From Escherichia coli (GTDB lineage: Bacteria > Pseudomonadota > Gammaproteobacteria > Enterobacterales > Enterobacteriaceae), in NCBI RefSeq assembly GCF_044324875.1, contig NZ_CP172185.1: 64,000 nt of DNA; one strand, written 5' to 3'. The position numbers were made by a program. Positions 20,801 through 21,885 of the stretch are shown in pieces (positions within the stretch are counted from its first letter, which is position 1; every line of letters begins with the position of its first letter).

Positions 20801-21885
20801 TGATAGAGCATTCTGTGATAGTGGATCATGGGGAAAGATCACATCGGGCTGTAAATCACCCGCATGCATACCGGTAATTGCGGGAATTTTTTGCGGTCGG
20901 GCGAAGACGGTCAGTCCTTTCATAAACAAGGTGTCGACGATGCGTTGCTGATCGTCTAGCGCGATGGCGACCACGACCCGCGGTTTAAAGCGCCCGCTGG
21001 AACGGCCCACGCCAACCCGCCCTTGCTGGCATAGTGTGTCGAAAGCACGGTTAAAACGAGAAATTTGCCAACCGCCTAAGGCCAGTTGCGCACACCAGGC
21101 GATAACGGCGACGGTGATGAGTGCGGATACCATAACTTTTCCTTAATGTAGTGGCGGAAGTCCTGTATGCCTGATGAGCGTAGCGCATCAGGCATTTTAT
21201 TAGTCTCGCGGAGATCCTTAACGGATCTCCGCTGTTGATCAGAACATCACCTGACCGCCGGTGACATTGATCGACTGTCCGGTGCAGTACGACGCCTTAG
21301 GACTGGCGTAGAACAGAAGCATATTCAGCACATCCTGATAATCGCAGCCGCGTTTGAGCGGTACTTTGTCGATGTAATACTGCTCGACTTGATCCGGTTT
21401 GATACCCAGCTTGGTCGCATATTGTGGCAATAGCGACTGAAACATCGGCGATTTCAGCAGATTACCGAGCATCAGTGAATGCACCGTAATGCCGTACTCC
21501 GCCAGATCCAGCGCCAGTGATTGAGTCAGCCCGACGCCACCAAATTTCGCGGCGCTATAACCAGAGTTGTGTTTGCTGCCCACTTTGCCGGATTTCGAGT
21601 TGATCTGAATAATGCGCCCCTGAATCCCGTCGCGGATCATCAAACGCGAAAATTCACGCGCACACAGGAAATAACCCACCAGATTCACCTGTAGCGAACG
21701 GTCAAAATCACCGAGCTGGAAGTCGCTGATAAAGGCTGCTTTTGCAATTCCGGCGCTGTAGACCAGCAAATCCACGCGACCAAAGATTTCATCTACCCCA
21801 CGAGAGAGCGCCAGAACGCTTTGCTCGCTGGTGGCGTCAGCACCAAAACCATACGCTGTTCCTTCACCATATTCGGCGTTAATTT

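What the first reader, a model, noticed from the sequence alone, without database searches (positions are those of the whole stretch)
21169..21232. Twin stem-loops in the srlD-gutM intercistronic region
Two strong hairpins (8-bp and 10-bp stems) sit inside the polycistronic srl transcript between srlD and the regulator genes gutM-srlR-gutQ. They could attenuate read-through or protect the upstream mRNA from 3-prime decay, giving differential expression of structural and regulatory genes.
Basis: inference. Interest (0 to 1): 0.25.

Follow-up and report, generated by a model that had tools for sequence, protein, structure and literature searches.

The report
REP hairpin and unique hairpin after srlD
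The two hairpins between srlD and gutM are real: one is an ordinary copy of E. coli's common REP repeat, and published K-12 data already show sorbitol-operon RNA ending at its base, while the other is a one-off hairpin just after the srlD stop codon, so this is a textbook-type mRNA-end element rather than anything new.

Summary
Observation confirmed. On the minus (sense) strand, the 105-nt srlD-gutM spacer holds two very stable stem-loops. Hairpin A (21208-21232) has a perfect 10-bp stem and folds at -21 kcal/mol. Hairpin B (21165-21195) has an 8-bp core that extends to 10+2 bp in this allele, at -14.5 to -18 kcal/mol. Neither is followed by a U-tract.

They are not twins. Hairpin B is a REP element: its sequence recurs at 20 to more than 40 intergenic places per E. 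coli genome, and a 2026 preprint's table flags gutM as REP-adjacent. Hairpin A is single-copy and found only in Escherichia. It starts 6 nt after the srlD UGA.

Published K-12 Term-seq (Adams 2021) maps an RNA 3' end 3 nt past hairpin B. That end is partly Rho-dependent and does not score as an intrinsic terminator. RNA-seq baseMean values give about 12-fold more srlD than gutM RNA per nucleotide.

Across 66 distinct enterobacterial spacers the sequence turns over, but a strong hairpin is nearly always present.

It is supported for hairpin B and untested for hairpin A. Low novelty.

The parts
21239..22018 (-). srlD (sorbitol-6-phosphate dehydrogenase) CDS. The stop codon UGA is at 21239-21241.
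   Evidence: ORF list; annotation of matching E. coli genomes.
21208..21232 (-). Hairpin A: a single-copy, Escherichia-specific stem-loop with a perfect 10-bp stem. The 5' arm is 21223-21232, the loop 21218-21222 and the 3' arm 21208-21217. It begins 6 nt after the srlD stop codon.
   Evidence: Fold of -21.1 kcal/mol, z -7.3. One place per genome in 5408 of 5426 E. coli genomes, always at the srlD 3' end. Absent from the spacers of other genera. In 15 distinct Escherichia alleles, 7 pairs are invariant and 3 vary only to G.U wobbles on the sense strand.
21196..21207 (-). A-rich 12-nt linker (GAGACUAAUAAA) between the hairpins. It varies among E. coli alleles, including a 1-nt indel.
21165..21195 (-). 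Hairpin B: one REP (repetitive extragenic palindromic) element. The REP core plus tail is GCCTGATGCGCTACGCTCATCAGGCATAC (21165-21193). The extended RNA stem is 21167-21195.
   Evidence: Fold. At least 40 similar places per genome. The canonical orthologous allele TGCCTGATGCGCTACGCTTATCAGGCCTAC recurs near-exactly at a median of 21 intergenic places per genome. gutM is flagged 'REP-adjacent' in Harris et al. 2026, Supplementary Table 10.
21164..21164 (-). Position equivalent to the Term-seq RNA 3' end mapped in K-12 at 2828590 (+). It lies 3 nt past the extended stem of hairpin B and 31 nt upstream of the gutM AUG.
   Evidence: Adams et al. 2021 Supplementary files 1 and 3; coordinate transfer.
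21134..21163 (-). Untranslated, C-richer stretch (GGACUUCCGCCACUACAUU) followed by the gutM Shine-Dalgarno AAGGAA (21139-21144). It is a possible Rho-loading segment.
   Evidence: C:G is 14:9 in the 50 nt after the 3' end. The SD is read from the alignment. The rut role is an inference.
20774..21133 (-). gutM CDS, the first of the downstream regulator genes gutM-srlR-gutQ.
20408..20408 (-). Position equivalent to the strongest Rho-termination region of the operon in K-12 (2829346, inside srlR). It is a likely source of transcripts that are then trimmed back to hairpin B.
   Evidence: Adams et al. 2021 Supplementary file 2. The coordinate was transferred assuming no indels; gutM and the gutM-srlR spacer have the same lengths in both genomes.

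Best explanation
The feature is a composite mRNA 3'-end and attenuation module inside the srlAEBD-gutM-srlR-gutQ transcript. It is built from a REP element (hairpin B) and a unique stop-codon-proximal hairpin (hairpin A).

Proposed mechanism: RNA polymerase reads through the spacer, but some transcripts are terminated downstream, partly by Rho. Rho could load on the untranslated C-richer stretch after hairpin B or act within gutM/srlR. 3'-to-5' exonucleases then trim these RNAs back until they stall at the REP stem. That leaves a stable srlAEBD message ending 3 nt past hairpin B. Fewer and less stable RNAs carry gutM-srlR-gutQ. The net result is high mRNA for the transporter and dehydrogenase and low mRNA for the regulators.

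Hairpin A most likely serves as a second, inner exonuclease barrier for srlD. Because it starts 6 nt after the stop codon, a terminating ribosome probably has to melt its base.

Shown: both structures; the REP identity of B; the single-copy status of A; the mapped 3' end and its partial bicyclomycin sensitivity in K-12; the srlD-to-gutM RNA level step; and retention of a hairpin at this junction across genera.

Inferred: that the hairpins cause the step; the exonuclease stalling; where Rho loads; and any role for hairpin A.
For: Structure: (z -5.4 to -7.8, 0 of 200 shuffles as good).

No intrinsic terminator: one search finds no hairpin-plus-U-tract site, and the Adams intrinsic-terminator score is 1.5, below the threshold of 3.

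REP identity of hairpin B.

3' end in K-12: position 2828590 (+), 4666 Term-seq reads, in the context ...CAUCAGGCAUACA|. The Rho score is 1.91 and the site is flagged as a significant Rho termination region.

Independent 3'-end signal: subtracting overlapping DirectRNA-seq windows (697 - 197) puts at least 500 reads in the 45 nt ending at that site. With bicyclomycin the figure falls to at least 187 (386 - 199).

General rule: Dar & Sorek 2018 found that Rho-dependent transcripts end precisely just 3' of stable, U-less stem-loops that protect against PNPase and RNase II, with mild C>G downstream. Here C:G is 14:9 in the next 50 nt.

Expression step: baseMean is srlD 14816, gutM 590, srlR 2494, which is 19.0, 1.6 and 3.2 per nt.

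Cross-genus conservation of structure: 57 of 66 distinct srlD-gutM spacers fold with z < -2 (median -3.7), against 17 of 54 gutM-srlR control spacers (median -1.3). The sequence that forms the hairpin differs by genus.

Allele changes: the two substitutions in the window/K-12 allele of hairpin B strengthen the RNA stem from -13.2 to -18.2 kcal/mol. All three stem substitutions in hairpin A preserve pairing, but only on the sense RNA.
Against: No mutational test of either hairpin exists that I could find.

The Term-seq 3' end is listed only for LB at OD 0.4. It is absent from LB OD 2.0 and M63-glucose, and no sorbitol-induced data were found.

No 3' end is listed at hairpin A.

The strongest Rho signal is 756 nt downstream, inside srlR. 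Part of the 'Rho score' at the spacer may therefore reflect that site.

Harris et al. found that REP fragments of 2-4 hairpins were not Rho-sensitive on their own, and that REP effects depend on context.

Hairpin A shows no double compensatory changes, and the shuffle control is uninformative.

baseMean values pool conditions and are not length-normalised by the source; the per-nt figures are my arithmetic. srlR RNA exceeds gutM RNA per nt, so other promoters or stability effects also act.

Nine of 66 spacers do not beat shuffles at z < -2.
Confidence: 0.65

Rival explanations
1. Selfish-DNA by-product. Hairpin B is just a REP copy that landed in a permissive spacer. The mapped 3' end is an incidental decay intermediate with no selected regulatory role, and the srlD/gutM expression step is set by other things (gutM translation efficiency, Rho termination in srlR).
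For: REP is a high-copy dispersed repeat. The spacer is a hot-spot for different repeats and ranges from 41 to 612 nt across genera. The main Rho region is in srlR. REP effects are variable and context-dependent. One natural strain tolerates an IS5-like insertion in the spacer.
Against: Almost every genus keeps a strong hairpin at this junction, even the 41-46-nt minimal spacers that have no REP. The control spacer is much less structured. The derived substitutions in this allele strengthen the RNA stem. At least 500 3'-end reads are concentrated at the hairpin base.
Confidence: 0.2
2. Translation-level control of SrlD by hairpin A. A stable stem-loop 6 nt after the stop codon hinders the terminating ribosome and lowers SrlD output, as reported for REPs lying fewer than 16 nt from a stop codon. 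This could coexist with the main model.
For: Hairpin A starts 6 nt after the UGA. [quoted passage not shown] In many other genera the first hairpin also starts 0-15 nt from the stop codon.
Against: Hairpin A is not a REP, and the original paper could not be read here, so whether any stable hairpin suffices is unverified. There is no ribosome-profiling or tmRNA-tagging evidence for srlD. srlD RNA is abundant.
Confidence: 0.15
3. DNA-level function. The perfect 10-bp palindrome of hairpin A (with two GATC sites) would be a protein operator, and/or the REP would be a binding site for DNA gyrase, Pol I or HU that affects local supercoiling or nucleoid structure.
For: Hairpin A is a perfect inverted repeat with a 5-bp spacer. 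REPs and BIMEs have been reported to bind several DNA proteins (abstract of PMC2817692). There is a weak sub-threshold resemblance to the REP-derived HU-binding RNA naRNA4.
Against: The three natural stem substitutions in hairpin A break the DNA palindrome but keep G.U pairing on the sense RNA. Only one REP is present, not a BIME pair. The 2026 preprint found no chromosome-compaction role for REP325/naRNA4. A sense-strand RNA 3' end maps at the hairpin base.
Confidence: 0.05
4. A riboswitch or a small regulatory RNA is encoded in the spacer.
For: Sub-threshold Rfam hits: NiCo-AnGGAG at 25.4 bits with local E 0.0013, and naRNA4 at 19 bits.
Against: Both are far below the gathering scores (64.5 and 59.5). 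The NiCo alignment rests on the 10-bp hairpin alone, with most other pairs flagged as non-pairs, and it overlaps the srlD coding sequence. No family reaches gathering score here. There is no U-tailed terminator typical of Hfq-binding sRNAs.
Confidence: 0.02

Closest known systems
REP325 in the yjdM-yjdN operon (Harris et al. 2026 preprint, doi 10.64898/2026.03.23.713779)
   Same: Both are REP hairpins lying between two tandem genes of one operon. REP325 limits, in a partly Rho-dependent way, the RNA that reaches the downstream gene, and it stabilises the upstream mRNA. At srlD-gutM the matching observations are the upstream-biased RNA levels and the partly bicyclomycin-sensitive 3' end.
   Different: REP325 is an array of 12 hairpins, and its partial Rho dependence needed the full array. 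Here there is one REP plus one unrelated unique hairpin. No deletion data exist for srlD-gutM.
[quoted passage not shown]
   Same: A precise steady-state 3' end lies immediately 3' of a stable stem-loop without a U-tract, with mild C>G downstream and sensitivity to bicyclomycin.
   Different: Those ends are mostly at the ends of transcription units. This one is internal to an operon, so it produces differential expression rather than simple termination. Exonuclease dependence has not been tested here.
The malE-malF intercistronic REPs as mRNA stabilisers (Newbury, Higgins and colleagues, 1987; recalled from memory, not read here)
   Same: REP hairpins sit inside a polycistronic sugar-utilisation operon and protect the upstream, highly expressed cistron from 3'-5' decay, giving unequal expression of the cistrons.
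   Different: The mal spacer carries paired REPs. Here there is a single REP plus a non-REP hairpin, and the downstream genes are the operon's own regulators.
naRNA4 / CssrE (Rfam RF02564), a REP-derived two-hairpin RNA
   Same: Both have a two-hairpin architecture with a ~13-nt linker, and the second hairpin is a GCCUGAUGCG...AUCAGGC REP.
   Different: The score is 19 bits against a gathering score of 59.5. The first hairpin here is not a REP. The proposed HU/nucleoid role of naRNA4 was not reproduced in the 2026 preprint.

Membership tests
REP (repetitive extragenic palindromic) elements of E. coli - hairpin B | An imperfect palindrome of about 30-40 nt that can form a stem-loop, located outside coding sequence. 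| tested here: met
   29-31 nt, 8-bp core plus 2 inner pairs, -14.5 to -18.2 kcal/mol, lying in the srlD-gutM spacer.
REP (repetitive extragenic palindromic) elements of E. coli - hairpin B | Match to the family consensus GCC(G/T)GATGCG...ATC(A/C)GGCCTAC. | tested here: met
   The window copy matches the head and the ATCAGGC part. Eleven of 15 distinct Escherichia alleles at this locus end in the consensus tail ATCAGGCCTAC or within one base of it, and seven carry the full GCCTGATGCGCTACGCTTATCAGGCCTAC. The window copy differs from that form by 2 substitutions.
REP (repetitive extragenic palindromic) elements of E. coli - hairpin B | Many dispersed copies per genome at intergenic sites. | tested here: met
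   The 40-nt query hits at least 40 places per genome, which is the reporting cap. The canonical 30-mer hits near-exactly at a median of 21 places per genome, with 'none' as the annotated feature.
REP (repetitive extragenic palindromic) elements of E. coli - hairpin B | A GTAG/CTAC tetranucleotide at one end, a characteristic of the GTAG-tagged REP superfamily (PMC3733652 abstract). | tested here: not met
   This allele, like K-12's, has ATAC (GTAT on the other strand) because of one C-to-A change. Eleven of 15 distinct orthologous alleles keep CTAC. I read this as a point-mutated copy that is probably no longer mobilisable. Homology to REP is established by the orthologous alleles.
REP (repetitive extragenic palindromic) elements of E. 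coli - hairpin B | Listed as a REP in curated K-12 annotation. | tested here: met
   gutM is marked 'REP-adjacent: Yes' in Harris et al. 2026, Supplementary Table 10. The local copy of NC_000913.3 shows no repeat features anywhere, so its silence is uninformative.
REP - hairpin A | A repeated sequence matching the REP consensus. | tested here: not met
   One place per genome, always at srlD. Only one copy in the window. No consensus match.
BIME (two REPs in inverted orientation) | At least two REPs in alternating orientation with a defined linker. | tested here: not met
   Only one REP is present in Escherichia. BIME-like pairs are present in the spacers of Citrobacter, Enterobacter and Klebsiella.
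Intrinsic (Rho-independent) terminator | A GC-rich hairpin immediately followed by a U-tract. | tested here: not met
   No terminator-like sites on the sense strand. The tails are GAGACUAA and ACAGGACU. The published intrinsic-terminator score is 1.5, below the threshold of 3.0.
Stem-loop-protected 3' end of a Rho-dependent transcript (Dar & Sorek class) | A precise 3' end just downstream of a stable, U-less stem-loop. | tested here: met
   The K-12 Term-seq 3' end lies 3 nt after hairpin B.
Stem-loop-protected 3' end of a Rho-dependent transcript (Dar & Sorek class) | Read-through increases when Rho is inhibited. | tested here: inconclusive
   The Rho score is 1.91 and the site is flagged significant. 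However, the 800-nt windows overlap a stronger Rho region inside srlR.
Stem-loop-protected 3' end of a Rho-dependent transcript (Dar & Sorek class) | The 3' end depends on 3'-5' exonucleases (PNPase, RNase II). | not testable with these tools
   This needs Term-seq or Northern blots in pnp and rnb mutants.
Stop-codon-proximal REP translational down-regulators (Liang, Rudd & Deutscher 2015) | A REP located fewer than 16 nt downstream of the stop codon. | tested here: not met
   Hairpin B (the REP) starts 43-45 nt after the UGA. Hairpin A is 6 nt away but is not a REP.
NiCo-AnGGAG riboswitch (RF03164) | Score at or above the Rfam gathering threshold, with the multi-stem fold formed. | tested here: not met
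   25.4 bits against 64.5. Most pairs of the preceding stem are flagged as non-pairs, and the hit overlaps the srlD CDS.

The most novel reading that the evidence does not exclude
Hairpin A would be an Escherichia-specific, translation-coupled RNA element. The ribosome terminating at the srlD UGA must open its base, so srlD translation rate would gate formation of the hairpin. Through that it would gate Rho access and exonuclease protection downstream, and so tune how much GutM activator and SrlR repressor is made per unit of SrlD. That would be a built-in gain control on the operon's autoregulatory loop, acting together with the domesticated REP, whose two derived substitutions strengthen the stem and destroy the GTAG mobilisation tag.
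Probability: 0.1. Interest if true: 0.35.

Novelty: already known. Interest (0 to 1): 0.12.

Why it matters
This is a clean example of an ordinary case. A REP repeat inside an operon marks a stable mRNA 3' end and coincides with a roughly 12-fold step down in RNA between the sorbitol catabolic genes and their own regulators.

That ratio matters for how the gut/srl operon autoregulates, because the activator GutM and repressor SrlR are encoded downstream of the structural genes. But the mechanism class has been known since the 1980s and was re-examined in 2018-2026. The REP next to gutM is already catalogued, and the 3' end is already in a published table.

The only modestly new points are these:
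- The first hairpin is a single-copy, genus-specific structure.
- Enterobacteria keep a hairpin at this junction while swapping the sequence that makes it.
- The K-12/window allele has strengthened the REP stem while losing its GTAG tag.

Tried and rejected
Rfam: nothing reaches gathering score at the locus. The NiCo-AnGGAG, naRNA4, C0465 and Afu_328 hits are sub-threshold and were rejected on inspection.

Promoter and terminator scan: no sigma-70-like promoter and no intrinsic terminator in the spacer on the sense strand. An independent gutM promoter is therefore not supported. A published TSS table could not be consulted (Thomason 2015, not held).

K-12 RefSeq annotation: no feature is listed in the spacer. 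However, this copy lists no repeat features even at a textbook REP, so the negative is meaningless.

Covariation test: there are no double compensatory changes, and the shuffle control is flat because variation is one-sided only. This is consistent with an RNA constraint but does not prove one.

Papers not held: Yamada & Saier 1988, Liang et al. 2015, Liang & Deutscher 2016.

Supplements not held or silent: Dar & Sorek 2018, Conway 2014, SMRT-Cappable-seq (no srlD or gutM entries), RepRanger.

The RpoN gSELEX site reported for 'srlB>srlD' concerns a different spacer. The UhpU-srlD RIL-seq pairing showed only a ~1.1-fold effect and was not localised.

Full report
**What is there**

The window is E. 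coli-type DNA. A 1.4-kb stretch around the finding matches 5410 of 5426 complete E. coli genomes at 96-99.6% identity. The srl/gut operon runs on the minus strand: srlA, srlE, srlB, srlD (21239-22018), gutM (20774-21133), srlR and gutQ.

The finding lies in the 105-nt untranslated spacer between the srlD stop codon and the gutM start codon. Read as RNA in the sense direction, the spacer is:

UGA-UCAACA-[GCGGAGAUCC GUUAA GGAUCUCCGC]-GAGACUAAUAAA-[AUGCCUGAUG C GC UAC GC U CAUCAGGCAU]-ACA GGACUUCCGCCACUACAUUAAGGAAAAGUU-AUG.

**Checking the observation**

Both hairpins are real and far more stable than shuffled sequence.
- Hairpin A folds at -21.1 kcal/mol (z -7.3).
- The hairpin B core folds at -14.5 kcal/mol (z -5.4).
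- The pair together folds at -35.6 kcal/mol (z -7.8).
- The whole spacer folds at -41.9 kcal/mol (z -5.9).

In each case 0 of 200 shuffles folded as well. Neither hairpin is followed by a U-tract on the sense strand, and the consensus scan finds no intrinsic terminator or promoter in the spacer.

**The two hairpins are unrelated**

A 44-nt query centred on hairpin A finds exactly one place per genome in 5408 E. coli genomes, always at the srlD 3' end. A 40-nt query centred on hairpin B hits at least 40 places per genome, which is the reporting cap.

Most other Escherichia alleles at this locus carry GCCTGATGCGCTACGCTTATCAGGCCTAC. That 30-mer recurs near-exactly at a median of 21 unannotated intergenic places per genome. 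From memory this is the short 'Z2'-type REP consensus.

A 2026 preprint's Supplementary Table 10 marks gutM as 'REP-adjacent', so the K-12 REP catalogue already includes it. The local copy of the K-12 RefSeq record shows no repeat features at all, even at a textbook REP in the ascB-hycI spacer, so its silence here means nothing.

Hairpin B is therefore a REP element. Hairpin A is a unique structure.

**The allele in this window**

Relative to the canonical REP, the window (like K-12) has two substitutions.
- U to C turns a G.U pair into G-C.
- C to A lets two extra A-U pairs form.

Together they raise predicted stability from -13.2 to -18.2 kcal/mol. They also change the CTAC/GTAG end of the REP to ATAC/GTAT.

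**Comparison across genera**

I extracted the srlD-gutM spacer from 69 loci covering Escherichia, Citrobacter, Salmonella, Klebsiella, Raoultella, Enterobacter, Kosakonia, Lelliottia, Kluyvera, Trabulsiella, Buttiauxella, Cedecea, Phytobacter and others. Its length runs from 41 to 612 nt.

The contents differ by genus:
- The minimal spacers (41-46 nt) contain one GC-rich hairpin, some with a U-rich tail.
- Others carry one REP of various types, or two inverted REPs (BIME-like).
- Others carry CCCTCTCCC/GGGAGAGGG palindromes.

Hairpin A occurs only in Escherichia.

Every spacer of 200 nt or less has a hairpin of -11.4 kcal/mol or better (median -22), usually starting 0-20 nt after the stop codon. 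Against dinucleotide shuffles, 57 of 66 distinct spacers have z < -2 (median -3.7). For the neighbouring gutM-srlR spacer the figure is 17 of 54 (median -1.3).

So the structure at this junction is kept while the sequence that makes it turns over.

**Variation within Escherichia**

In 23 sequences (15 distinct), hairpin A is paired in 100% of cells. Seven pairs never vary. Three vary on one side only: G-C to G.U, U-A to U.G, and C-G to U.G. Each of these keeps pairing on the sense RNA but would be an A.C mismatch on the antisense strand. Each also breaks the DNA palindrome, and the antisense folds are weaker.

There are no double compensatory changes and the shuffle control is flat. This is suggestive of an RNA-level constraint on the srl transcript, not proof of one.

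**Experimental evidence from the literature**

Adams et al. 2021 (eLife, PMC7815308) list a Term-seq 3' end at K-12 2828590 (+):
- 4666 reads, in LB at OD 0.4, class 'orphan', 31 nt upstream of gutM.
- Sequence context ...CAUCAGGCAUACA|, which is 3 nt past the extended stem of hairpin B. The window equivalent is 21164.
- Intrinsic-terminator score 1.5, where 3 or more suggests intrinsic termination.
- Rho score 1.91, flagged as lying in a significant Rho-termination region.

No 3' end is listed at hairpin A, and none is listed in the other two growth conditions.

The strongest Rho region nearby is inside srlR at 2829346 (697 reads upstream against 76 downstream, Rho score 3.7, p 2e-18). The 800-nt windows of the two sites overlap, so they can be subtracted. 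At least 500 DirectRNA-seq reads lie in the 45 nt ending at the hairpin B 3' end. With bicyclomycin the figure is at least 187. This arithmetic is mine, and how the two samples were normalised is unknown.

In the Harris et al. 2026 preprint, the DESeq2 baseMean values are srlD 14816, gutM 590 and srlR 2494. Per nucleotide that is 19.0, 1.6 and 3.2, a step of about 12-fold across the junction.

**Mechanism**

These facts fit two published generalisations.
- Dar & Sorek 2018 showed that Rho-dependent transcripts have precise steady-state 3' ends immediately after stable, U-less stem-loops. These loops protect against PNPase and RNase II, and there is mild C>G enrichment downstream. Here C:G is 14:9 in the next 50 nt.
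- Harris et al. 2026 showed by deletion that REP325 in the yjdMN operon is both a partly Rho-dependent attenuator and a stabiliser of the upstream mRNA. [quoted passage not shown]

The best explanation is that hairpin B forms the protected 3' end of an srlAEBD message while less RNA continues into gutM-srlR-gutQ.

Hairpin A is probably a second barrier for srlD. Because it begins 6 nt after the stop codon, a terminating ribosome should have to melt its base. A translational effect like the one reported for REPs fewer than 16 nt from a stop codon is therefore possible but untested. The original paper was not available.

**Caveats**

- Nobody, as far as I could find, has mutated these hairpins.
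- The Term-seq signal comes from uninduced cells.
- Part of the Rho score may belong to the srlR-internal site.
- Harris et al. found that short REP fragments were not Rho-sensitive on their own.
- srlR RNA exceeds gutM RNA per nucleotide, so other inputs exist.
- The original description of the operon's regulators (Yamada & Saier 1988) could not be read.

**Rejected readings**

- Riboswitch or sRNA: the Rfam hits are far below threshold, and the NiCo alignment rests on one hairpin and overlaps the CDS.
- Intrinsic terminator: no U-tract.
- BIME: only one REP.
- DNA operator: the natural substitutions break the DNA symmetry but keep the RNA pairing.

**Verdict**

The finding is ordinary and already catalogued. 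The only mildly new points are the single-copy, genus-specific hairpin A and the conservation of structure with turnover of sequence at this junction.

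Noticed in passing
L077 (E. 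coli XD35, NZ_CP089142.1), aligned to window ~21208-21217: An IS5-like ISEc68 element is inserted within the 3' arm of hairpin A. It separates srlD from gutM in this natural isolate.
   Followed up: partly
window 21139-21144 (-), alignment A2 column 103: The gutM Shine-Dalgarno is AAGGAA in the window and K-12-type alleles, but AAGGAG in most other Escherichia alleles. The weaker SD partly co-occurs with the strengthened hairpin B allele. Both changes would lower GutM relative to SrlD.
   Followed up: no
window ~20408 (-), inside srlR (K-12 2829346): Published DirectRNA-seq with and without bicyclomycin places the strongest Rho-termination region of the operon about 300 nt into srlR (Rho score 3.7, p 2e-18). 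This would be a second attenuation point upstream of gutQ.
   Followed up: partly
window 21165-21200 (+ strand): On the antisense strand, hairpin B is followed by AUUUUAUU in this allele (K-12 has AUUCUAUA). This looks like a terminator for antisense transcription. The consensus scan missed it because the loop exceeds its limit.
   Followed up: no
window 7360-7393 (-): A textbook REP (GCCGGATGCGGCGTGAACGCCTTATCCGGCCTAC) lies in what corresponds to the ascB-hycI spacer of K-12.
   Followed up: no
window 12313-12373 (+): A degenerate REP-like hairpin (TGCCGGATGCGACGC...GTGTCCGGC) lies between the hypF- and hydN-equivalent genes. Its K-12 orthologue has a strong Term-seq 3' end (2837453, minus strand, 55806 reads) about 20 nt downstream.
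   Followed up: partly
window 34468-34539 (-); 31110-31554 (+); 63775-63847 (+): Rfam gathering-level hits elsewhere in the window: the MicA sRNA, a cluster of three tRNAs, and one further tRNA.
   Followed up: no
L003 (DXKH01000030.1) versus L040 (DXKH01000052.1): A MAG labelled 'Citrobacter sp.' has one contig with an E. coli-type spacer and 100% identical GutM, and another contig with a Citrobacter-type spacer. The first contig is probably misbinned E. coli DNA.
   Followed up: no
L044, L047, L050, L053, L065 (Enterobacter and relatives), srlD-gutM spacer: These spacers carry a CCCTCTCCC-N3-GGGAGAGGG palindrome preceded by TCACCCTAA. From memory this resembles the enterobacterial boxC repeat rather than a REP. 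It shows that different repeat families occupy the same junction.
   Followed up: no
K-12 srlR versus gutM (Harris et al. 2026 DESeq2 table): srlR RNA per nucleotide (3.2) is about twice that of gutM (1.6), even though srlR lies downstream. This hints at an extra promoter before srlR or at lower stability of the gutM segment.
   Followed up: no
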